This document shows positions 25,703 to 45,189 of a stretch of DNA of 64,000 nt, in pieces. The notes under the pieces were generated by a model. The model was not told the DNA's origin, made no database searches, and was given only the letters and a program-made list of their open reading frames with translations. Positions within the stretch are counted from its first letter, which is position 1. Every line of letters starts with the position of its first letter. Position numbers and translations under genes: made by a program. The stretch comes from the human T2T-CHM13v2.0 reference genome, Homo sapiens: the NCBI RefSeq assembly GCF_009914755.1, contig NC_060936.1; one strand, given 5' to 3'.

Positions 25703-26166
25703 TGTGATGGTTAATACTGAGTGTCAACTTGATTGGATTGAAGGATGCAAAGTATTGATCCTGATGCAAAATATTGGTGTGTCTGTGAGGGTGTTGCCAA
25801 AGGAGGTTAATGTTTGAGTCAGTGGGCTGGGAAAGGCAGACCCACCCTTAATCTGGGAAGGGACCATCTAATCAGCTTCCAGCATGGCTAGAACGTAAAG
25901 CAGACAGAAAAACGTGAAAAGACTAGACTGGCCTAGCCTCCCAGCCTGCATCTTTCTCCCATGCTGGATGCATCCTGCCCTTGAACATCAGACTCCAGGT
26001 TCTCCAGTTTTGGGACTGGGACTGGCTCTCCTTGCTCCTCAGCTTGAAGACAGCCTATTGTGGGACCTTGTGATCATGTGAATTAATACTTAATAAACTT
26101 CCCTTCATCCTATTAGTTCCCTGTATCCTATTAGTTCTGTCCCTGTAGAGAACCCTGACTAATACA
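25703..26166 (+). mobile_element. MLT2A-type (HERV-L) solo LTR
   Basis: tgtgatggttaatactgagtgtcaacttgattgg…agagaaccctgactaataca; TSD GTAAC/GTAGC. Confidence 0.92.
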
Positions 26167-30499: not shown

Positions 30500-31167
30500 G
30501 GCAGAAGCATCTAGAGCCATGAAGCCAGGAAGCAAGAGTAGCCACACAATGCCCAGGAAGAACAAAGTGAGGTGACCGATGCTGCTGGCGTTGTGAAGGC
30601 CCAGTCATCTAGACTGTGTGCTATTGGAGAAAGAAAAGACAAATGGGTGGATGGAACAGAAGAGGGCCTCAGCAATAGACTCTCACAAATAGAATCAACT
30701 GACTTTTGATAGAGGAACAAATGCGGGAGAAGAGTCATTTCAACAACTGGTACTGGAACAATTCTATGCACAAAAGAAAATGGTGTGGGGGCCAGAGAAA
30801 AGAATTCAGACACACACAGTACTTACCACTGTCACAAAAAATAATGTACAGTGGATCTTAGATCTAATACAAAATAGAGTACCATAAAACTTCTAAAAGT
30901 TAACATGGGAAAAAGTCTAAACAAACTTGCCTGTGATGATGAGTTTTTAGATAACATTTCAAAAGCATGATTCATAAAAAAAGATAAGTTTGACTTTATT
31001 AAAATCAAAACTTCTGCTTTCAGAAAGTTAATAGAATTTTTTAAAAGTCAAATACTGGGAGAAAATATTTGCAAAACACATCTGGTAAAGGATTTGTATG
31101 CAAACATACAGAAAGAAACTCTTACAACTCAACAAGAAACAACCAAATGAAAAAATGGCAGAGATCT
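30500..31167 (+). mobile_element. Old L1M ORF2/3' fragment
   Basis: caactgacttttgatag…tcaacaactggtactggaacaa…tactgggagaaaatatttgcaaaac…ctcttacaactcaacaa. Confidence 0.7.
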
Positions 31168-31457
31168 GGCCGGGCGTGGTGACTCACTTCTGTAATCCCA
31201 GCACATTGGGAGGCCGATGTGGGATGATCGCTTGAGCTCACAAGTTTGAGACCAGCCTGGGCAACATGGGGAAACCCTGTCTCTACAAAAATACAAAAAT
31301 TAGCCGGCCATGGTGGTTAACACTTGTAGTCCCAGTTACTCAGGAGGCTGAGGTGGGAGGATCACTTGAACCTGGGAGGCAGAGGTTGCAGTGAGTCAAG
31401 GTCATTCCACTACACTTCAACCTGGGTGACACAGCAAGACCCTGCCTCTAAAAAAAG
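31168..31457 (+). mobile_element. Alu (J/S)
   Basis: ggccgggcgtggtgactcac…aaaaaaa. Confidence 0.92.
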
Positions 31458-32484: not shown

Positions 32485-32654
32485 AGGGTTTGGTCCCAAG
32501 TAGAATTTCTTTAGGAGTAGTCTGAAGGCCTGTTCAGACTACCCACTGAGGAGCTGTTGATTTATATATTAATACCAATTCTGGGGCCCTGTTCCAGAAA
32601 ATCTGAATCAGAATCTTGGGGAAATTGAGTCCAGAAATCTGTACGATTGACCAG
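32485..32654. mobile_element. MER5A left part (continues ~44495-44540)
   Basis: attctggggccctgttccaga…tctgaatcagaatcttgggg…ccagaaatctg resumes after the MLT2A LTR as cttgccaaattattctg…tgaaggtatga. Confidence 0.55.
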
Positions 32655-33047
32655 TGTGATGGTTAATACTGAGTGTCAACTTGATTGGATTGAAGGATGC
32701 AAAGTATTGATCCTGGATGTGTCTGTGAGGGTATTGCCAAACAGGGTTAACATTAGAGTCAGTCGCCTGGGAAAGGAAAACACACCCTTAATCTGGGTGG
32801 CCACCATTCAATCAGCTGCCAGCATGGCTAGAATATAAAACAGCCAGAAAAATGTGAAAAGGCTAGACTGGCCTGGCCTCCCAGCCTGTGCTGTACGCCT
32901 CCCACCCTCAAACATCGGACTCCAAGTTCTTCAGTTTTGGCACCCAGACTGGCTCTCCTTGCTCCTCGGCTTGCAAACAGCCTATTGTGGGACCCTGGGA
33001 CTGTACAAGTTAATACTTAATCAATGTGCGTACATATATCACTTGCA

Positions 33048-34539
33048 TTATATATATATATATATAAATATATGTTATATATATTTTATAAATATATATA
33101 ATAATATATAATATATATAAATTTATATATATTATATATAGATATATATATATCTATATATAAATATATATAGATATATATATATATCTATATATATTTA
33201 TATAAATATATAAATATATATATTATATATATATATAAATTTATATATATATATAATATATTAAATTTATATATTTTTTATATATAATATATATAAATTT
33301 ATATATTTTTATATATAATATATATATAAATTTATATATATTATATAATATATATAAATTTATATATAATATATATATTTATATATAATATAATATATAT
33401 AAATTTATATATATTATATAATATATATATAAATTTATATATATTTTGTATATACATAATATATAAATTTATATATATAAATTTATATAAATAAATTTAT
33501 ATATATAAATTTATATAATATATATAAATTTATATATGTTTTTATATATATTTTATATATATAATAAATATATATATTTTTATAAAATAATATAAAATAT
33601 ATAATATATATATTATATATAATAGGATATATAATAGGATATAATTATATATTATATATGATAATGAGGATAATTATATATTATATATGATAATATATCA
33701 CATATATTATATATGATAATATATCACATATATTATATATGATAATATATCACATATATTATATATGATAATATATCACATATAATATATATGATAATAT
33801 ATCACATATAATATATATGATAATATATCACATATAATATATATGATAATATATCACATATAATATATATGATAATATATCACATATATTATATATGATA
33901 ATATATCACATATATTATATATGATAATATATATATTATATATGATAATATATCACATATATTATATATGATAATATATATATTATATATGATAATATAT
34001 CACATATATTATATATGATAATATATATATTATATATGATAATATATCATATATATTATATATGATAATATATATATTATATATGATAATATATCATATA
34101 TATTATATATGATAATATATATATTATATATGATAATATATCATATATATTATATATGATAATAGATATTATATATGATAATATATATATTATATATGAT
34201 AATAGATATTATATATGATAATATATATATTATATATGATAATATATATATTATATATGATAATATATATATTATATATGATAATATATATATTATATAT
34301 ATAATATATATATTATAAATGATAATAGATCATATATATTATAAATGATAATAGATCATATATATTATAAATGATAATAGATCATATATATTATATATGA
34401 TAATAGATCATATATATTATATATGATAATAGATCATATATATTATATATGATAATAGATCATATATATTATATATGATAATAGATCATATATATTATAT
34501 ATGATAATAGATCATATATATTATATATGATAATGATAA
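33048..34539. repeat. TA-rich tract and ~24-26-bp AT-rich minisatellite (tatatgataatatatcacatatatta / tatatgataatagatcatatatatta variants)
   Basis: Direct reading; unit variants occur in blocks from ~33671 to 34539. Confidence 0.95.
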
Positions 34540-34957
34540 TGAGGAGAGAGGCCATTTCTCTTACTATCCCCTGTCTCCAAAGAGAAGGAGGAAGTAAAAG
34601 CTGAAAAACAACAGACTGATCGACACCACTGGTCAGGCCTGTAGGTTAAAGATTAACCCCCACCCTAATAGCTTGTGCTACCTATAGATCACAGACTATG
34701 GTATGGAGAAGTACTTGCATTGCTTATCCCCACCGCTAATGTATGTGGACATAGTCACGTACCCCATGCATGCTCACTCTATCACAACCCTTTCACGTGG
34801 ACCCCTCAGGGTTGTAAGCTTTTAAAAGGGCCAGGAATTCTTTCTTCAGGGAGCTCAGTTCTTGAGATGCAAGTCTGCCAACCTCCCGGCTGAATAAAGC
34901 CCCTTCCTTCTTTAACCTGGTGTCTGAGGGGTTTTGTCTGCAGCTCATCCTGTTACA
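34540..34957 (+). promoter_or_regulatory. 5' LTR (418 bp)
   Basis: tgaggagagagg…ctgttaca; TATA-like ttttaaaa ~34820; AATAAA 34893-34898. Confidence 0.93.
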
Positions 34958-34962
34958 TTTCT

Positions 34963-34980
34963 TGGTTTCCTGACTGAGAA
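34963..34980 (+). other. Primer-binding site, tRNA-Glu type
   Basis: tggtttcctgactgagaa versus TGGTTCCCTGACCGGGAA (complement of the tRNA-Glu 3' end), 3 mismatches, directly after the LTR. Confidence 0.85.
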
Positions 34981-35442
34981 GTGAGGTGGTTGATGGACGG
35001 TCGAGGTAGTCCCTTAGGTGGCTTAAGCCTGCCCTGCAGAGCATCCCTGCGGAGGACTCTGGCTAGCTTGAGTGACGCAGATCCTAAGAGTGCTCCCGGG
35101 TAGCCATCTGCCCTGGTGGAATGCCTCGTCAGAGAGGTGCATGGCAGACCCTGCGAGGATCAACACAGTGGCTGAACACCAGGAAGGAACCAGTGTTTGG
35201 AGTCTGGACGTCTGGAATATGGTAGGACCGGTCCTGGGAACTTGCCCCCTCCATTTGAGTGGAAGCATGGCCTGATCACCCACGGTGTGCCCTTATTGAC
35301 ACTTTGGTCTCAGTTTTGATTTTGATTTGGCTTGGCTTGTTTGAAGAAAGGAGAATGAAAGTGAGTGAATACTTGTGATTGACACGAATCTCCTCTTGTG
35401 GCATGAGTGTTCTTTTCTTTCTTTTCTTGTCTTGGGAAGGAG

Positions 35443-37075
35443 ATGGGTAAAACACAGAGTAAGCCCACTCCATTAGGAACTATGTTAAAGAATTTCAAAA
35501 AAGGTTTTAATGGAGATTATGGGGTTACTATGACTCCAGGAAAACTTAGGACCTTGTGTGAGATAGATTGGCCAGCATTAGAAGTGGGTTGGCCGTCAGA
35601 AGGAAGCTTAGTCAGGTCCCTTGTTTCAAAGGTATGGCATAAGGTAACTGGTAAAGGACACCCAGACCAAGTTTCCATACATAGACACTTGGTTACAGCT
35701 GGTTTTAGACCCCTGACAGTGGTTAAGAGGACAGACAGTAGTACTAGCGGCAAAGGGACAGACAGTCAAGGAAGACTCCTGCTCCACCCGCCGAGAGGAG
35801 TTGGCTCTTAAAGTCCTGTCAGACTCAACATCAGAGGATTAAGGGCAAGAAACAGCACCAGTGGCCCGCACTGTTACCAAGAAGGAAGGCCTCCCACTCC
35901 TGAGCCCACTGCGCCCAAGCTTCCACAAGGCCTACATACCCCTAGGCCACCCAGAGTAGAAAAGAAAGGATGTGAGACCTTGGGAGAAACCCTTCCCTTG
36001 GCAGCCTGTTTGAGGCCTAGAACTGGGATACAAATGCCCCTGAGAGAGCAATGGTATACTGGGGTAGACAAGGACGGGCATATGGTGGTGCCTTCGTGTA
36101 TCAACCCTTCACCTCTGCCGATCTCTTCAACTGGAAAAACAATACCCCATCCCATCAACCCTTCACCTCTGCCGATCTCCTCAATTGGAAAAACAATACC
36201 CCATCCTATACCAAAAAGCCTCAAGCTATGATTGATTTGCTCCCAACTATTATCCAGACCCACAACCCTACTTGGGCTGATTGCCACCAGTTGCTCACGT
36301 ACCTCTCTTTAACATGGATGAAAGGTGAAGGGTTCTCCAAGCAGCAACTCAGGGGCTAGAGGAACATGTTCCAGCTGATTACCAAAACCCCCAAGAGTAT
36401 GTGAGGATCCAATAACGAGGAACAGACCTCCAGTGGGACCCAAATGAAAGACAGGTTATGCAAAGGCTAAACCGGTACAGGGAATCCCTCCTGGAAGGGT
36501 TAAAGAGGGGATCTCAGAAGGCCACAAACTTTAACAAGGTCTCTGAGGTCATTCAAGGGAAAGGTGAGAGCCCGGCACAATTCTATGAGAGACTATGTGA
36601 GGCCTATCTTATGTATACCCACTTTGACCCTGAAAGCCCTGAAAATCTGCACATGATTAACATGGCTTTAGTTAGTCAAAGTGCAGAAGACCTTAGAAGA
36701 AAACTACAGAAACAGGCTGAGTTTGCAGGCATGAAGACTTCATAGTTATTGGAGATAGCCAACCAGGTGTTTGTGAAAAGAGATGCAGTAAGCCACAGAA
36801 CCGCAGCGAGAGTGAACGCTAAGTCCGGTGAAACGCCGAACTGCTAGCCGCAGCTATTAAAGGGGTGCCCCCGAAGGGCGAGAGAAGGGGGGGGCCGGGA
36901 AAAATACCAGTCTGGCCGTCCATGCTTGCAGAGTAACCAGTGTGCTTACTGTAAGGAAATAGGACATTGGAAGGCAAGTGCCCCCAGCTGAAAGGGAAAC
37001 AGGGTGACTCTGAGCAGGAGGCCTCAGAAGGATGAAGGGGCCTTGTTCAATCTGGCAGAAGGGTTACTGGACTGA
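35443..37075 (+). pseudogene. gag: HERV-E gag (frameshifts and stops)
   Basis: MGKTQSKPTPLGTMLKNFKKGFNGDYG matrix start; MHR KVSEVIQGKGESPAQFYERLCEAY; broken CCHC knuckle (CAYCKEIGHW) ~36942; TGA 37073-37075. Confidence 0.9.
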
Positions 37076-40000
37076 GGGGGATCAGACTCATGTGCCCCAA
37101 AGAGCCCATGGTCAGGATGACAGTCGGGGGCAAGGACATTGAGTTTCTTGTTGATACTGGTGCTGAACATTCAGTAGTAACCACCCCACTCGCACCCTTA
37201 TCCAAAAAGACTATTGATATAATCGGAGCCACAGGGGTTTTGGCAAAGCAAGCTTTCTGTTTGCCCTGGACCTGCACTGTAGCGGGGCATGAGGTAATTT
37301 ACGAGTTCCTGTACATGCCTGAGTGCCCCTTGCCTTTACTGGAAGGGACCTACTTAGCAAGCTGAGAGCCACTATCTATTTTACAAAGCATGGCTCTTTA
37401 CAGCTAAATTTACCTGGAACGGGAGTCATCATGGCCCTTATGGTTCCTCTGGAAGAGGAATGGAGACTCTTCTTAACTGAGCCAGGCCAGTAGATAGGAC
37501 CAGCCCTGGCTAAGTAGTGGCCAAAGGTGTGGGCGGAAGACAACTCTCTAGGGCTGGCTGTCAACCAGGCCCCAGTACTCATAGAAGTTAAGCCTGGGTC
37601 CCAGCCAGTCAGGCAAAAGCAGTACCCAGTTCCCAGAGAAGCCCTTGAAGGCGTCCAGGTCCATCTCAAGGGCCTGAGGGCCTTTGGAATTATAGTCCCT
37701 TGTCAGTCTCCATGGAACGCTCCCCTCCTACCTGTTCCCAAGCCAGGGACCAAGGACTACAGGCTGGTACAGGGTTTCTGCATGGTCAACCAAGATACAG
37801 TGACTTTGCACCCAACAGTACCTAACCCATACATGTTGTTGGGGTTGCTGCCAGCCGAGGACAGCTGGTCCACCTGCTTGGACTTGAAAGATGCTTTCTT
37901 TAGTATCAGACTAGCCCCTGAGAGCCAAAAACTGTTTGCCTTTCAGTGGGAGGATCCGGGGTCAGGTGTCACCACTCAGTACACTTGGACCTGGCTCCGC
38001 CAAGGGTTCAAGAACTCCCTCACCATCTTTGGGGAGGCACTGGCTCAAGACCTCCAGAAGTTTCCCAGCAGAGACCTAGGCTGCGTGCTGCTCCAGTACA
38101 TCGATGACCCCCTGCTGGGACACCCCACGGCATTCGGGTGTGCCAAGGGAACAGATACCCTGCTCTGGCACCTGGAGGACTGTGGGTATAAGGTGTCCAA
38201 GAAGAAAGCTCAGATCTGCAAACAGCAAGTATGTTACCTGGGATTTACTATCTGACAGGGAGAGTGCAGCCTGGGATCAAAAAGAAAGCAAGTCATTTGC
38301 AACCTGCTGGAGCCTAAGACCAGAAGGCAGGTGAAAGAATTCTTAGGAGCTGTAGGGTTCTGCAGGTTGTGGATCCCAAACTTTGCAGTATTGGCTAAGG
38401 GCCTATACGGAGTCACAAAGCGGGGAGACAAGGAACCTTTCAAATGGGGGTCCCAACAGCAGTGAGCTTTTCATGAGTTAAAAGAAAATCTCATGTTGGT
38501 CCCAGCCCTGCGGCTACCTGACCTGACAAAACCTTTTACACTGTATGTGTCAGAGAGAGAAAAAATGGTGTTTGGAGTTTTGACCCAGACTGTGGGGCCC
38601 TGGTCGAGGCCAGTGGCCTACCACTCCAAACAACTAGACGGGGTTTCTAAGCATTGGCCTGCATCTTTAAGGACCTTGGCAGCAACAACCCAGCTAGCAC
38701 AAGAAGCGGATAAGCTAACTCTTGGGCAAAACCTAACTATAAAGGCCCCCCATACTGTGGTGACTTTAATGAATACCAAAGGACATCAATGGCTAACGAA
38801 TGCTAGACCAACTAGATACCAAAGCTTGCTCTGTGAGAATCCCCACATAACCATTGAAGTTTGCAACACCCTGAACTCTGCCACCTTGCTCCCGGTATCA
38901 GAGAGCCCAGTTGAACATAACTGTGTAGAGGTGATGGACTTAGTTTATTCTAGCAGGCCTGACATCCGAGACCATCCTTGGACATAAGTAGACTGGGAGC
39001 TGTACATGGACAGGAGCAGCTTCGTCAACCCATAAGGAGAGAGGTGTGTGGCATATGCAGCGGTAACCCTAGACACTGTCACTGAAGCCAAATCGTTACC
39101 CCAGGGCACTTCAGCCCAGAAGGCCGAACTCATTGCTTTAATTCAGGCCTTAGAGCTAAGTGAAGGTAAGACTGTAAACATTTACACTAACTCTCGGTAT
39201 GCCTTTTTAACCCTCCAAATGCATGGGGCATTATACAAGGAAAAAGGCCTGTTGAACTCTGGGGGAAAAGACATAAAGTATCAGCAAGAGATCTTGCAAT
39301 TATTAGAGGCAGTATGGGAGCCCCAAAGGGTGGCAGTCATGCACTGCAGAGGACACCAGTGAGCTTCCACTTCGATTGCCTTGGGGAACTCCCAAGCTGA
39401 CTCAGAGGCTCGAAAGGCAGCATCCACCCCGTACTGGGTGTTAGTCACAGCCCCCCTGCTCCTTCAGTCACCTGACCTTGTGCCTACTTATTCTAAAGAA
39501 GAGAAGGACTTTCTCCAGGCAGAGGGAGGACAGGTTATAAAAGAGGGATGGATCCAGTTATTGGATGGAAGAATAGCTGTGCCACAGCTGCTAGGGGCTG
39601 CAATTGTACTGGCTTGCATAAGACCACCCACCTAGGCGAAGAGTCACTTGAAAAGTTGTTAGGCTGGTACTTCTACATCTCACATCTGTCAGCCCTTGCC
39701 AAAACAGTGGCGCAGCAGTGTGTCACCTGCTGGCAGCACAATGCTAGGCAAGGTCCAAAAGTCCTGCCCAGCATACAGGCTTGTGGAGCAGCCCCCTTTG
39801 AAGATCTCCAAGTAGACTTCACCAAGACGCCCAAATGTGGAGGTAACAAGTATTTGCTAGTTCTAGCGTGTACATACTCTGGGTGGGTGGAGGCCTATCC
39901 AACACGAACTGAGAAAGCTCATGAAGTAACCCATGTGCTTCTCTGTGATCTCATTCCTAGGTTTGGACTGCCCTTACCAATTGGCTCAGACAACGGGCCG

Positions 40001-40667
40001 GCATTTGTGGCTGACTTGGTACAGAAGACAGCAATGGTATAGGGGATCACATGGAAACTACATACCACCTATCGACCACAAAGTTCTGGAAAGGTGGACC
40101 GGATGAATCGGACTATCAAAAATAGTTTAGGGAAAGTGTGTCAAGAAACAGGATTAAAGTGGGTACAAGCTCTCCCTGTGGTATTGTTTAAGATTAGATG
40201 TACCCTTTCTAAAAGAACAGGATATTCCCCTTATGAAATATTATATCATAGGCCCCCTCCCTCACTACAGGGACTCCCAGGCACTCCGCAAGAGCTAGGT
40301 GAAATTGAGTTACAGTGATAGCTACAGGCTTTAGGGAAGATAACGACAAAAAATTTCAGCCTGGGTAAGTGAGAGGTGCCCCATCAGCTTACTCTCCCCA
40401 GTTCACCCTTTCTCCCCAGGTGATCGGGTGTGGATCAAGGATTCGAACGTAGCCCCCTTGCAGCCACGGTGGAAAGGACCCCAGACCGTCGTCTTGACCA
40501 CTCCCACAGCCATAAAGGTAGAGGGAATCCCAGCCTGGATCCACCACAGCCACGTAAAACCTGCAGCACCTGAGACCTGGGAGGCGAGACCAAGCCCGTA
40601 CAACCCCTGCAAAAAAGTAACTCTGAAGAAGACGACAAGCCCTGTTCCAGTCACACCCAGAAGCTAA
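37076..40667 (+). pseudogene. pol: HERV-E pro-pol (protease, RT, RNase H, integrase; disrupted)
   Basis: FLVDTGAEHS protease; LDLKDAFF, QGFKNS and QYIDD for RT; TSAQKAELIAL for RNase H; HHCC-like region, LQVDFT and GSDNGPAF, WKGPQTV for integrase; many stops and frameshifts. Confidence 0.93.
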
Positions 40668-40689
40668 CTGGTCCACGCATGGCCAAAGC

Positions 40690-42762
40690 ATGAGGAAACT
40701 CATCCTGGAACTCATTTTCCTTAAATTCTGGATTTGTACAGTAAGGACTTCAACTGACCTTCTTCAGACTGAGGACTGTTCCCAGTGTATGCATCAAGTT
40801 ACTGAGGTAGGGCAAAAGGTTAAAACAGTCTTTCTGTTTTATAGTTATTATGAATACACAGGAACTCTAAAAGGAACTTGTTTATATAATGACACCCAGT
40901 ATAAGGTATGCAGTCCAGAAGATGGACAACCTAGTGTTCGTTATGATCCATCTGAACACCCCATGACCACAGTGTTTGAAATAAGGTTGAGGACTGGCAA
41001 CTGGAGAAAAGCCAATAAGAGTAAAATAATAACTAGAACAGAAGAAAAGGGAGTCCCCAAACAAATTATCTTAAAAGTTGACACCTGTGCAGCAATCAAC
41101 AGTAACCTGTATAGAAATAGAATAAGATGCGGCTCTCTAGATTGGGAAAGGAGCCATACAGTAGAAAATAAGTATGTTTGTCATGAATTAGGACTGTGTA
41201 ATGATGAATGTAGTTACTGGTCCTGTGTCATTTAGGCCACCTGAAAAAAGGATGAGAAGGACCCTGTCTGCCTTCAAAAAGGAAAGAGTAACTCTTCCTG
41301 CACTAGTGGTCACTGTAATCCATTAGAACTAGTAATTACCAATCTCCTTGATCCCCGTTAGAAAACAGGAGAGTATGTAACTCTAGGAATAGATGGAACT
41401 GGACAGGATCCCTGAGTAAATATTTTAGTCCAAGGGGAGGTCCACAGGCGGTCTCCCAAACCAGTGTTTCAGACCTTTTATGAGGAGCTGAATCTGCCAG
41501 CACCAGAGCTTCCAAAAAAGGAAAAAAGAGACAAAGAACTTGTTTCTCCAGCTAGCAGAAAATGTAGTTCATTCCCTCAATGTTACTTCCTGTTATGTAT
41601 GTCAGGGAACCACTACAGGAGACCAATGGCCTTGGGAAGCCTGAGAATTGGCACTTACTGATCCAGTTCCTGACACAATTCCAGTCCCAAAGGCCCAAAC
41701 TAGCAACTTCTGGGTCTTGAAAACCTCGATTATTGGAGAATACTGCATAGGTAGAGAGGGGAAGGACTTCACCATCCCTGTGGGAAGGCTCAATTGCCTA
41801 GGACAAAAGCTATATAACAGCACGGCAGGGACAGTCACCTGGTGGGGTCTCAATTGCACTGAAAAGAGTCCATTCAGTAAATTTCTCAAGTTACAGACTG
41901 TTCGGGCCCATCCAGAATCTCATCGAGACTGGACGGCTCCCGCTGGACTATACTGGATATGTGGACATAGAGTCTACACCAAGTTACCTGACCAATGGGC
42001 AGGTATTTGTGTCATTGGCACCATTAAGCCATCTTTTTCCTACTGCCTGTAAAAAAAGGTGAGCTCCTAGGTTTCCCTGTGCATGCCTCCTGAGAAAAGA
42101 GGAGCATAGCTATAGGAAATTGGAAAGATGATGAGTGGCCCCCCAAAAGAATCATACAGTACTACAGGACTGTCACATGGGCACAAGACAGCTTGTGGGG
42201 ATGCCAAACCCCCTTCTACATGCTCAACTGGATCATACGGTTACAGGCCATCTTAAAAATAATCACTAATGAAACTGGCAGAGCTTTGACTCTTTTTTAG
42301 CCTGGCAGGAAACCCAAATGAGAAATGCCATCTATCAGAATAGATTGGCCTTAGACTGTTTGCTGGCAGCTGAAGGAGGAGTATGAAAAATTCAATTTGA
42401 CCAATTGCTGTCAGCAAATAGATGATCAAAGACAAGTAGTCAAAAATATAGTTAGAGACATGACAAAGCTGTCACATGTGCCCATGCAGGTTTCACATGG
42501 GTTTGATCCTGGATCCCTGATTGGAAAATGATTTCCAGCTCTAGGAGGATTTAAAACTCTTATAATGGTAATAATAATAGTGTTAGGAACCTGCATGTTA
42601 CTCCTCTGTATGTTACCCATATTTGTCCAGTTACTAAAAGGTTTTGTTACTACCTTAGTTCATCAAAAGACCTCAGCACAAGTGTATTACATGAGTCACT
42701 ATCGATCTGTCTCACAGGAAGATCTAGATAGTGAGGATGAGAGTGAGAACTCCCACTACTGA
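40690..42762 (+). pseudogene. env: HERV-E env (disrupted; first 181 codons open)
   Basis: MRKLILELIFLKFWICTVRTSTD signal peptide; (R)EKR furin site ~42091-42102; ISD YQNRLALDCLLAAEGGV and a CC motif ~42332-42410; TM helix VIIIVLGTCMLLLCMLPIF; first stop TAG at 41233. Confidence 0.92.
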
Positions 42763-42784
42763 GTGAGGGTCTCAAAGGGGAGAA

Positions 42785-43208
42785 TGAGGAGAGAGGCTAT
42801 TTTTCCTACTGTCCCCTGTCTCCAAAGAGAAGGAGGAAGTAAAAGCTGAAAAACAACAGACTGATCGGTGCCACTGGCCAGGCCTGTAGGTTAAAGATTA
42901 ACCCCCACCCTAATCGCTTGTGCTATCTATAGATCACAGACAATGGTATGGAGACATACTTGCATTGCTTATCCCCACCGCTAATGCTAACATATGTGGA
43001 CGTAGTCTCGTACCCCATGCTTGCTCAATCTATTACGACCCTGTCACCTGGACCCCTTAGGGTTGTGAGCCTTTAAAAGGGTCAGGAACTCTTCCTTCAG
43101 GGAGCTCCATTCTTGACAAACAAGTCGCTGACACTCCTGACTGAATAAAGCCTCTTCCTTCTTTAACCCGGTGTCTGAGGGGTTTTGTCTGTGGCTCGTC
43201 CTGCTACA
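42785..43208 (+). promoter_or_regulatory. 3' LTR (424 bp), preceded by the polypurine tract aaaggggagaa
   Basis: Homologous to 34540-34957; AATAAA 43144-43149. Confidence 0.93.
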
Positions 43209-43749
43209 ATAATATATATATGTTATAGCCTATTATATAATATATTTATATATTATATATTATATTATATATATTTTATATTATATAATTATATATTTTA
43301 TATTTATATATTATATTATTTATATATATTTATATATAAATATATATTTTATATATTTATATATAAATATATATTTTATATATTTATATATAATATATAT
43401 TTTATATATTATATATAAATATATATTTTATATATTTATATATAAATATATATTTTATATATTTTATATATTTATATATAAATATATATTTTATATATTT
43501 ATATATATTATAATATATGAATATATATTAATATATTATATATAATCTATTAATATATATGAATATATATTATAAATATATAATTATATATTGTAAATAT
43601 ATAATATGTAATTCATGCTCTATTTCTCTCTTTAGTGCTCAGCAATAACATTCAGCACAATTTTACTCTCCTTATATGTTATATATAATATATAATTATA
43701 TATAACATAGGATATAACATATTTATATATTATTGTGTATATATATATA

Positions 43750-43939
43750 ATGCAAGCAATATATATAGGCACTTTTGTTAAGTATTAACTTGTACAGTCA
43801 CAGGGTCCCACAATAGGCTGTCTGCAAGTTGAGGAGCAAGGAGAGCCAGTCTGAGTCCCAAAACTGAAGAACTTGGAGTCCAATGTTTGAGGGCAGAAAG
43901 CATCCAGCACAGTAGAAAGATGTAGGCTGGGAGGCTAGG
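43750..43939 (-). repeat. Inverted copy of MLT2A segment 32872-33050
   Basis: Its reverse complement aligns to 32872-33050, including ctgtacaagttaatacttaa and cttgcattatata. Confidence 0.9.
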
Positions 43940-43944
43940 AGATA

Positions 43945-44458
43945 CATATATATGTGTATATATATGTATACACATTATACATATATATTATATGTATACA
44001 CATTATACATATATATTATATGTATAATATTATAATATACATATAATATATATTATATGTATATTATAATATACATATAATATATATTATATGTATATTA
44101 TAATATACATATAATATATATTATATGTATAATATTATAATATTATACATATAATATATATTATATGTATAATATTATAATATACATATAATATATATTA
44201 TATGTATAATATTATAATATACATATAATATATATTATATGTATATTATAATATACATATAATATATATTATATGTATAATATTATAATATACATATAAT
44301 ATATATTATATGTATAATATTATAATATACATATAATATATATTATATGTATAATATTATAATATACATATAATATATATTATATGTATAATATTATAAT
44401 ATACATATAATATATATTATATGTATAATATTATAATATAATATTATATATATATAAA
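43945..44458. repeat. AT-rich minisatellite of ~35-37-bp palindromic units
   Basis: Unit tatattatatgtat(a)(at)attataatatacatataata; the core atatgtatattataatatacatat is self-complementary. Confidence 0.93.
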
Positions 44459-45189
44459 TTCTGTCCCTCTAGAGAACCTGACTAATACAACCAGCTTGCC
44501 AAATTATTCTGCTATGCTTGAAGGTATGATGGCCTCTGGTAGGCAGCATTTTCGTGCCTTCCCTGCCCCAGTCTTGGTGGTTGTTAGTAGTCTCTTGCTG
44601 AGCCTTAACACTTCGAGTCCTTAGAGTGACTTACTCATGTGGTTTGCCTGGTACTGTTGTATTTTAGAGTTGAAAATCCTGCATATGAAGAAACTCCTTA
44701 GTCCTCTGAAACCCGGTACAGTTTGTCACTCTAACTGCAGACTCGCAAGGTGTCCAGAGAGCACTGCCATCTCCTAGATCATCATTAAAACAATATGTAT
44801 TAAGTTCTTCTTGAGCCAGGCACATTTCTCAGCACCGGGGGGGGGGACCTACGCACCAGAGATAAGACAAAAGGAGAGTAAAATTGTGCTGAATGTTATT
44901 GCTGAGCACTGAAGAGAGAACTAGACCATGAACGGAGGACAGAAATGATGGAGAGTCGGGAGGAGCGGCCTCATGGAGAAAGCACCACTTGCCCAACGAT
45001 CTGAAGGAGACGAGTGAATGAATCATGCCAGTATAGACAGGGTGGGTGGGGGTTCCAGGTAGATGAAAACACAATGCAGGTGGCAAGAGGCTGTACAGAA
45101 AATATTCCAAATAGGTTCTGAGAAAATGTGTCTAGTAGATGGTAATGTACTGTTCACTTAAAGGGTTAAGAGTAGGTTGTTCACTCGAG

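What the first reader, a model, noticed from the sequence alone, without database searches (positions are those of the whole stretch)
32872..43939. HERV-E provirus sits near the centre of a hidden AT-rich fold-back palindrome
Seen: 43750-43939 is the reverse complement of 32872-33050. The two arms share ctgtacaagttaatacttaa and cttgcattatata, which are absent from the intact MLT2A copy at 25703-26166, so this looks like a local inverted duplication rather than a second insertion. Symmetry continues inward: ataaatatatgttatat (~33064) pairs with atataacatatttatat (~43712), and tataataggatataa (~33630) pairs with ttatagcctattata (~43223). With the provirus and the 33671-34539 array removed, these inner arms are only ~30 bp apart, giving a ~1.5-kb PATRR-like palindrome with the integration site at its tip. 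By hand count, arm divergence is ~21/175 (~12%) and LTR-LTR divergence is ~44/418 (~10%). Established: AT-rich palindromes extrude cruciforms and are unstable, and retroviral integrases favour distorted or hairpin DNA in vitro. Inference: either the cruciform tip attracted the integration, or the 8.7-kb insert acted as a spacer that stabilised an otherwise short-lived palindrome.
Basis: partly seen in the sequence, partly recalled or inferred. Interest (0 to 1): 0.8.

Follow-up and report, generated by a model that had tools for sequence, protein, structure and literature searches.

The report
Provirus inside a locally inverted LTR
A catalogued HERV-E provirus lies in the unstable AT-rich tract of a much older solo LTR that also carries an old, locally made inverted duplication; this is an ordinary nested-repeat locus, not a 1.5-kb palindrome with the virus at its tip.

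Summary
The inverted repeat is real. The proposed AT-rich inward symmetry (33080-33670 against 43213-43724) is no better than direct-orientation or shuffled controls.

What is there is one old solo LTR, 32655-44489, with a perfect 5-bp target duplication (ACCAG). Three things have filled its internal TA tract:
- about 2.5 kb of AT-rich arrays;
- a HERV-E provirus (34540-43208, duplication ATAA; listed as RetroTector rvnr 3915);
- an inverted patch, 43612-43939.

The patch is a reverse-complement mosaic of two local sources, the LTR body and 71 nt of unique flank from 44862-44932. It is therefore a local template-switch or inverted duplication, not a second LTR insertion.

The left arm actually continues to the right of the provirus (43209-43262 pairs with 43681-43737). 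The provirus and its neighbouring arrays therefore interrupt the left arm, 261 nt from the symmetry centre. The spacer is 420 nt. The arms are about 50% AT and 11% diverged, so they fail the PATRR criteria.

The 37-nt palindromic-unit array at 43996-44453 is PATRR-like in sequence. The order of the events cannot be settled here. The locus is ordinary and of low interest.

The parts
32650..32654 (.). Left copy of the 5-bp target-site duplication (ACCAG) of the old solo LTR
   Evidence: Read and printed; identical to 44490-44494.
32655..33079 (+). It starts with the same 8 bases as the intact copy at 25703.
   Evidence: 80% identity to 25703-26097 over 395 columns; alignment.
32872..33079 (+). 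Left arm of the inverted repeat, outer part
   Evidence: 183 matches, 23 mismatches, 3 gap events against the reverse complement of 43715-43939. A 13-nt deletion is private to this arm.
33080..33670 (.). AT-rich tract TA1 (97% AT), grown inside the LTR's TA tract
   Evidence: It is not specifically complementary to the right-hand tract.
33671..34539 (.). AT-rich minisatellite of 26/47-nt units (TRF period 78, 91% AT), abutting the provirus
   Evidence: (family D1).
34540..43208 (+). HERV-E provirus, 8669 nt, with LTRs at 34540-34957 and 42785-43208. All genes are broken into short frames. The 4-bp target duplication ATAA lies at 34536-34539 and 43209-43212.
   Evidence: Pfam hits Gag_MA, Gag_p30, RVP, RVT_1, RT_RNaseH, RNase_H, zf-H2C2, rve and MLVIN_C, plus TLV_coat below its cut-off, in 9 of 14 frames scanned. 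LTRs 10.1% diverged; TSD and termini. Catalogued as HERVE/LTR2, rvnr 3915, chr12 hg19 127965514-127973862 (PMC4724089 supplement 1; its 18-mer found at 34704-34721).
43209..43262 (+). Continuation of the left arm and of the old LTR, including its CCTATTA word at 43229
   Evidence: Reciprocal best inverted match with 43681-43737; 45 matches, 4 mismatches, 4 gaps. G/C landmarks are in exact register. GTTATA.CCTAT occurs once per strand in the whole window, at 43222 (+) and 43707 (-).
43263..43611 (.). AT-rich array TA2 (period 27/115), which forms most of today's spacer. Its units resemble the arm end in direct orientation.
   Evidence: In one search, 33040-33085 hits 43320-43357 on the + strand at 92% (56.4 bits); the best inverted hit scores 46.8 bits.
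43612..43682 (-). Reverse-complement copy of unique downstream flank 44862-44932, lying between the arms
   Evidence: 65 of 71. It is the only other hit in the window, E 1e-22 to 1e-23.
43683..43939 (-). Right arm: reverse-complement copy of the old LTR from about position 215 to its CCTAT word, truncated at 43939
43940..44458 (.). AT-rich array of 37-nt palindromic units (12.5 copies at 43996-44453, 94% matches, 94.3% AT). It folds as one long hairpin.
   Evidence: arms 44132-44248 / 44249-44365, 95%, 0 nt between.: -161.7 kcal/mol against -94.0 +/- 3.7 for shuffles, z -18.4, 0 of 100 shuffles as good. for AT content.
44453..44489 (+). 3' end of the old solo LTR
   Evidence: 89.5% identity to 26129-26166 over 38 columns; alignment.
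44490..44494 (.). Right copy of the 5-bp target-site duplication (ACCAG)
44862..44932 (+). Source of the inverted 71-nt flank piece

Best explanation
A single old ERVL/MaLR-type solo LTR (32655-44489, target duplication ACCAG) has a TA-rich tract near its 3' end that became a hotspot for change.

Step 1 (inferred): replication template switching in that tract wrote a reverse-complement mosaic of two nearby sources into it. The sources are the LTR from about position 215 to its CCTAT word and 71 nt of unique flank 370 nt downstream of the LTR. The result was a fold-back with arms of about 260 nt and a spacer that contained the 71-nt piece from the start.

Step 2: the TA tract duplicated and grew into AT-rich mini- and microsatellite arrays, now about 2.5 kb.

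Step 3 (shown): a HERV-E provirus integrated canonically (ATAA duplication) into the AT-rich inner part of the left arm.

The provirus and the arrays to its left now split the left arm by 10.1 kb. Nothing indicates a function. The locus is a record of repeat instability, and its present hairpin-prone parts are the AT-rich arrays, especially 43996-44453.
For: One LTR, not two. The 5' part is 80% identical to 25703-26097 and the 3' end 89.5% to 26129-26166. The 5-bp duplication is perfect, ACCAG/ACCAG; the reference copy shows GTAAC/GTAGC, and the LTR's first and last 8 bases are identical in both copies.

Local origin of the patch. The 71-nt flank copy matches 65 of 71 and is the only other hit in the window. 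Reading the patch in reverse complement gives the same order as the parent locus. The two arms share words absent from the other copy. In three-way columns, the arms agree against the other copy in 18 of 149 ungapped columns; the right arm agrees with the other copy against the left arm in 10, the left arm with the other copy in 3, all three differ in 1, and 117 are identical. Thirteen further columns are gapped.

The left arm continues right of the provirus. The matches are reciprocal best hits at 54.5 bits, next best 41.1 and 46.8. The G/C landmarks are in exact register, and GTTATA.CCTAT occurs once on each strand of the window.

Canonical integration. ATAA/ATAA duplication and TG..CA LTR termini.

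HERV-E identity. Pfam domains and the published catalogue row.

Patch before provirus (parsimony only). The patch is collinear with the parent once 33080-43215 is left out.
Against: With one outgroup copy the shared differences cannot be polarised: 18 columns also fit private change in the other copy. The right arm is nearly as close to that copy (138/162, 85.2%) as to the left arm (135/149, 90.6%).

Private changes in the two arms are unequal, 10 against 3, which is odd for sister copies.

The mosaic lacks the LTR 3' end and 370 nt of flank. A single switch therefore does not suffice: either two switches or a later deletion must be assumed.

The order of events rests on parsimony. Slippage between the roughly 20-nt direct repeats that flank 33080-43215 could have skipped that block in a later copy.

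The three divergences (arms 11.2%, flank piece 8.5%, provirus LTRs 10.1%) do not differ (Fisher p 0.68-0.90).

The match at 43209-43262 is short and mostly AT.
Confidence: 0.68

Rival explanations
1. The locus is a roughly 1.5-kb AT-rich, PATRR-like palindrome whose arms run inward through 33080-33670 and 43213-43724. The provirus sits at its tip, either because a cruciform attracted the integrase or because the provirus later stabilised the palindrome as a spacer.
For: The outer arms are real. A dust-filtered blastn extends an inverted alignment across 32886-33603 / 43912-43215 at 77% over 744 columns. Parsimony puts the fold-back before the integration. In print: MLV integration in vitro correlates with target DNA folding (PMC3279379, abstract), and fixed ERVs lie in AT-rich, microsatellite-rich regions (PMC4911145, abstract and passages).
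Against: The AT-rich part of that alignment is an extension artefact. The inverted score is 169.5 against 170.0 direct, and shuffles reach 169.5. Landmark words do not favour inversion. Flipping the right tract changes the fold by 2 kcal/mol. The left arm continues right of the provirus, so the site lies inside an arm, 261 nt from the centre. A 71-nt unpaired piece lies between the arms. The PATRR criteria of more than 90% AT, near-perfect symmetry and no spacer (PMC4940405 passages) are not met. In one meta-analysis MLV sites were, if anything, depleted near cruciform motifs, though not significantly (PMC9962126 passage).
Confidence: 0.06
2. The right arm is an independent, truncated insertion of a second copy of the same LTR family, in opposite orientation, into the first copy's TA tract. 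This would be nested insertion, not duplication.
For: The right arm is 85.2% identical (138/162) to the unrelated copy at 25932-26097, not far below its 90.6% (135/149) to the left arm. It keeps 13 nt that the left arm lacks. Three sequences always fit a star tree.
Against: A 71-nt inverted copy of unique local flank lies 65 nt from it in the same orientation. The arms share a 20-mer and a 13-mer absent from the other copy, and they share a TA-tract layout up to GTTATA.CCTAT. No target duplication or LTR termini bound the piece: both its ends are truncated in AT-rich sequence.
Confidence: 0.05
3. The same local inverted duplication, but made after the provirus had integrated, so the fold-back played no part in integration. 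The copying skipped 33080-43215 by slippage between the roughly 20-nt direct repeats that flank that block.
For: The divergences of the arms, the flank piece and the provirus LTRs are indistinguishable. Direct repeats do flank the block (33056-33080 and 43209-43227). The patch already needs at least one other skip, over the LTR 3' end plus 370 nt of flank.
Against: It needs one more precise skip, of 10.1 kb, than the patch-first order does.
Confidence: 0.2

Closest known systems
Palindromic AT-rich repeats (PATRR11, PATRR22 and others)
   Same: This is an inverted repeat in an AT-rich setting. One array here (43996-44453) is 458 nt, 94.3% AT, and folds as a near-perfect long hairpin.
   Different: PATRRs are described as more than 90% AT, nearly perfect and without a spacer (PMC4940405 passages). 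No translocation or polymorphism data exist for this locus.
Replication template-switch inverted copies (four-point model of Loytynoja and Goldman; FoSTeS/MMBIR at larger scale)
   Same: [quoted passage not shown]
   Different: The copies here are about 260 nt plus 71 nt from two sources more than 1 kb apart. At least two switches, or a later deletion, are needed. The four-point model explicitly covers single short-range events only.
FRA10B / FRA16B-type AT-rich minisatellites
   Same: AT-rich (91-94%) units of 26-47 nt in tandem, hairpin-prone. FRA16B has 33-bp units, FRA10B about 42-bp units at 91% AT (PMC9714581 passages).
   Different: The arrays here are 0.46-0.87 kb (about 2.5 kb of AT-rich sequence in all). 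That review states that FRA10B is fragile above 5 kb. No cytogenetic data exist for this locus.
HERV-E proviruses (LTR2 group; prototype 4-1)
   Same: LTR-gag-pro-pol-env-LTR with gammaretrovirus-type domains and a 4-bp duplication. It is listed as HERVE/LTR2, rvnr 3915.
   Different: Nothing unusual about the provirus itself; only its landing site is unusual.

Membership tests
PATRR (applied to the fold-back 32872..43939) | More than 90% AT | tested here: not met
   Arm bodies are 48.9% and 54.2% AT. Only the inner 60 nt or so is AT-rich.
PATRR (applied to the fold-back 32872..43939) | Nearly perfect palindrome | tested here: not met
   183 matches, 23 mismatches, 3 gap events covering 19 nt.
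PATRR (applied to the fold-back 32872..43939) | No spacer | tested here: not met
   The spacer is 420 nt even with 33080-43215 left out, and it includes a 71-nt unpaired piece. Today the arms lie 10.65 kb apart.
PATRR (applied to the fold-back 32872..43939) | Breakpoint of recurrent or non-recurrent translocations; size-polymorphic alleles | not testable with these tools
   No population or breakpoint data are available here.
PATRR-like sequence (applied to the array 43996-44453) | Several hundred bp, more than 90% AT, near-perfect palindrome without spacer | tested here: inconclusive
   458 nt and 94.3% AT. Arms of 117 nt are 95% complementary with 0 nt between, but only 80.7% ungapped over 212-nt arms. 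Hairpin z-score -18.4. It is a tandem array of palindromic units, so it has many centres rather than one.
HERV-E provirus | Two LTRs flanking gag-pro-pol-env of gammaretrovirus type | tested here: met
   Pfam matches in 9 of 14 frames scanned, env below its cut-off. LTR pair.
HERV-E provirus | Closest to HERV-E references (LTR2 / HERVE internal) | tested here: met
   Published table row: chr12 hg19 127965514-127973862, canon HERVE, RepeatMasker LTR2 + HERVE, best reference HERV-E 4-1 at 82% (PMC4724089 supplement 1). Its 18-mer is at 34704-34721. That this row is the same locus is inferred from the chromosome, an expected-coordinate range that I worked out from recalled assembly offsets (no call), and the 18-mer.
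HERV-E provirus | Primer binding site for tRNA-Glu | tested here: inconclusive
   A TGG-initiated 18-mer lies 5 nt after the 5' LTR, at 34963-34980. Its likeness to a tRNA-Glu site is recalled, not tested. RetroTector scored its own PBS and placed it inside the LTR.
   ACCAG/ACCAG here and GTAAC/GTAGC at the other copy; the first and last 8 bases of the LTR are the same in both copies.
No repeat library is held.
Single short-range template switch (four-point model) | One reverse-complement fragment from one nearby source explains the change | tested here: not met
   There are two source segments (32872-33079 plus 43209-43262, and 44862-44932), and 415 nt between them is absent from the copy.
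FRA10B/FRA16B-type expanded AT-rich minisatellite | AT-rich tandem units of a few tens of bp | tested here: met
   37-nt units x 12.5 at 94% matches, plus the 26/47-nt array.
FRA10B/FRA16B-type expanded AT-rich minisatellite | Expansion to several kb, with cytogenetic fragility | tested here: not met
   The arrays are 0.46 and 0.87 kb in this assembly. Fragility itself is not testable.

The most novel reading that the evidence does not exclude
A fold-back of about 0.6-0.9 kb, made by template switching in the TA tract of an old LTR, already existed when HERV-E arrived. Its hairpin-prone AT-rich inner arm guided the integration to within about 50 nt of the arm-spacer boundary. The same structure then drove runaway growth of palindromic AT-rich minisatellites of the FRA10B/FRA16B kind. 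If so, this 12q24.32 locus would be a candidate seed for the unmapped BrdU-type rare fragile site FRA12C, listed as '12q24, not mapped' in PMC9714581 (passage).
Probability: 0.06. Interest if true: 0.55.

Novelty: new member of a known kind. Interest (0 to 1): 0.22.

Why it matters
The value is mainly a correction. An apparent 1.5-kb hidden AT-rich palindrome dissolves once direct-orientation and shuffle controls are run, because TA-rich DNA is self-complementary and aligns equally well either way.

What remains is a clean worked example of one LTR's TA tract collecting three kinds of change: a template-switch inverted mosaic, minisatellite growth, and a provirus. Both sets of target duplications are intact, so the nesting is unambiguous. 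It could serve as a test locus for ordering such events across primate T2T assemblies.

The 37-nt palindromic-unit array is a plausible site of structural polymorphism. It does not open a long-standing question.

Tried and rejected
1. I rejected it as an extension artefact.
2. The three-way column count with the only other LTR copy in the window cannot polarise changes.
3. I considered the idea that the G/C word at 33620-33645 marks a mirrored arm. It matches 43707 in direct orientation as well as it matches 43229 inverted, so I dropped it.
5. The literature search 'HERV-E' + '12q24' returned 10 papers. In the one I opened (PMC7232394), both mentions concern an HML-2 locus at 12q24.33. 'LOC105370067' returned 0 papers. 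No title or abstract start in the listings concerns this locus's fold-back.
6. In the supplement of PMC4724089, cytoband terms and 'chr12' found nothing. A search on coordinate prefixes found the row.
7. The script stopped on an indexing slip after printing the register plot. The alignment was redone.
8. Dating: the divergences of arms, flank piece and LTRs cannot be told apart, so I claim no order from clocks.

Full report
**Observation**

The repeat finder reports arms 32886-33073 and 43725-43912, 188 nt ungapped and 87% complementary, 10,651 nt apart. A gapped alignment of 32872-33077 with the reverse complement of 43715-43939 gives 183 matches, 23 mismatches and 3 gap events covering 19 nt, i.e. 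11.2%. One of those gaps is a 13-nt deletion private to the left arm.

They are missing from the other copy of this LTR at 25703-26166. The provirus LTRs (34540-34957 and 42785-43208) differ at 42 of 417 aligned positions plus 3 gap events, 10.1%.

**The claimed inward symmetry fails its controls**

TA-rich DNA is close to self-complementary, so it aligns with anything TA-rich in either orientation.
- The tract 33074-33670 scores 169.5 against the reverse complement of 43209-43724. It scores 170.0 against the same tract in direct orientation and 169.5-171.0 against the unrelated array 43940-44446.
- Thirty dinucleotide shuffles give 152.3 +/- 7.7, with a maximum of 169.5.
- Among 10-mers carrying at least two G/C, 1 is shared in inverted and 2 in direct orientation. 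No 12-mers are shared either way.
In the fold the tracts pair mostly with themselves (224 and 167 pairs) and little with each other (75 pairs).
- The 744-column inverted alignment that a dust-filtered blastn produced is an extension seeded in the true arms.

**What the locus is**

The left arm belongs to an LTR that begins at 32655 and is 80% identical to 25703-26097. The last 37 nt of the same LTR lie at 44453-44489, 89.5% identical to 26129-26166. The five bases before 32655 and after 44489 are both ACCAG. The reference copy has GTAAC/GTAGC at the same places, and the first and last eight bases of the LTR are the same in both copies. One solo LTR was therefore inserted once, and everything from about 33080 to 44452 lies inside it, at the TA-rich tract near its 3' end. 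I could not check the family name (MLT2A in the finding), because no repeat library is held.

Inside that tract lie:
- AT-rich arrays, about 2.5 kb in all;
- the provirus;
- an inverted patch at 43612-43939.

**The provirus**

It is 8,669 nt long and has TG..CA LTR termini and an intact ATAA/ATAA duplication. Its frames give Gag_MA, Gag_p30, RVP, RVT_1, RNase H, zf-H2C2, rve and MLVIN_C, plus a sub-threshold TLV_coat, in 9 of the 14 frames scanned. All are in short, broken frames.

It is already catalogued. Supplement 1 of PMC4724089 lists rvnr 3915 on chr12 at hg19 127965514-127973862, classed HERVE with LTR2, best reference HERV-E 4-1. That row's 18-mer is found at 34704-34721. I read only that supplement row and its header. 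That it is the same locus is inferred from the chromosome, a coordinate range I worked out from recalled assembly offsets, and the 18-mer.

**New evidence on the patch**

Immediately inward of the right arm, and in the same inverted orientation, 43612-43682 is a reverse-complement copy of 44862-44932 (65 of 71). That source is unique sequence 370 nt downstream of the LTR and has no other match in the window. Read in reverse complement, the patch runs LTR position ~215, then the TA tract, then the CCTAT word, then flank. This is the order of the parent locus, with the LTR 3' end and 370 nt of flank missing.

An independent LTR insertion would not bring local flank with it. The patch is therefore a local inverted duplication. 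Replication template switching with at least two switches, or one long copy followed by a deletion, is the simplest mechanism. This is inference; compare PMC5453318, passages read.

The three-way column count is compatible with local duplication but cannot prove it with a single outgroup. The columns are: 117 identical, 18 arms-against-other-copy, 10 right-arm-with-other-copy, 3 left-arm-with-other-copy, 1 all different and 13 gapped. The right arm is 85.2% identical to the other copy and 90.6% to the left arm.

**Corrected geometry**

The 54 nt just right of the provirus (43209-43262) and the AT-rich inner part of the patch (43681-43737) are each other's best inverted match in the whole window: 54.5 bits, with next-best scores of 41.1 and 46.8. 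They align with 45 matches, 4 mismatches and 4 gaps. Their G/C landmarks are in exact register about a centre at 43470. The word GTTATA.CCTAT occurs once on each strand of the window, at 43222 and 43707.

The left arm therefore continues to the right of the provirus. The block 33080-43215 (two AT-rich arrays plus the provirus, 10,136 nt) interrupts that arm. With the block left out, the fold-back is about 930 nt, with arms of about 260 nt and a 420-nt spacer (43263-43682). The spacer is made of an AT-rich array and the unpaired 71-nt flank piece.

The integration site is 54 nt from the arm's inner end and 261 nt from the centre, so it is not at a tip. The right-hand array's units resemble the arm end in direct orientation, not inverted.

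**Order of events**

The patch is collinear with the parent only when 33080-43215 is left out, so parsimony puts the patch before that block and hence before the provirus. A later copy that slipped between the roughly 20-nt direct repeats flanking the block is not excluded. Divergence does not help: arms 11.2%, flank piece 8.5% and LTRs 10.1% give Fisher p values of 0.68-0.90. A review quotes about 0.3% per million years and HERV-E waves at about 45 and 25 million years (PMC4379568, passage). All three events would then fall in the catarrhine era; this is inference.

**Comparison with known kinds**

PATRRs are described as several hundred bp, more than 90% AT, nearly perfect and without a spacer (PMC4940405, passages). 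The fold-back fails three of these four.

The array at 43996-44453 comes much closer. It has 37-nt palindromic units in 12.5 copies at 94% matches and 94.3% AT. Arms of 117 nt are 95% complementary with no spacer. It folds as one long hairpin at -161.7 kcal/mol, against -94.0 +/- 3.7 for 100 shuffles. It also resembles the FRA16B/FRA10B minisatellites in unit size and composition, but it is far shorter than the more than 5 kb quoted for fragility (PMC9714581, passages).

The general idea that ERVs end up in AT-rich, microsatellite-rich DNA, and that (AT)n cruciforms might be recognised by integrases, is already in print (PMC4911145, abstract and passages). One meta-analysis found MLV sites not enriched at cruciform motifs (PMC9962126, passage).

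**Verdict**

The 'local duplication' inference holds and is strengthened. The 'PATRR with the provirus at its tip' reading is not supported. The locus is an ordinary, if tidy, nested-repeat locus. I saw nothing about this fold-back in the listings, and one search returned no papers. Primate orthologues, which these tools cannot reach, would settle the order of events.

Noticed in passing
window 38187-40806: By the hub's annotation, the first exon of the predicted lncRNA LOC105370067 lies wholly inside the provirus (reverse transcriptase to integrase region), on the provirus's own strand. The transcript therefore starts in HERV-E internal sequence, not in an LTR. No paper mentions the gene.
   Followed up: partly
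window 36100-36207: A 54-nt tandem duplication (2.0 copies, 94-96% identical) lies inside the gag region of the provirus.
   Followed up: no
window 43996-44453: A tandem array of 37-nt units that are themselves palindromic. The whole 458 nt can fold as one hairpin (z -18.4). It is a likely site of length polymorphism and a PATRR- or FRA16B-like sequence in miniature.
   Followed up: yes
window 34704-34721: The primer-binding-site string that the RetroTector catalogue gives for this provirus (PBS score 0, type T) lies inside the 5' LTR, not after it. A better TGG-initiated candidate sits at 34963-34980, 5 nt after the LTR.
   Followed up: partly
window 33056-33080 and 43209-43227: Direct repeats of about 20 nt flank the whole block of arrays plus provirus. 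The right copy starts at the provirus's target duplication. This suggests a tandem duplication of the LTR's TA tract seeded the arrays before integration.
   Followed up: partly
window 31151-31456: An Alu-like element with 13 similar copies elsewhere in the window (71-79% identity) lies just upstream of the old LTR.
   Followed up: no
window 44840-44848: A run of nine G lies 14 nt upstream of the flank segment that was copied into the inverted patch.
   Followed up: no
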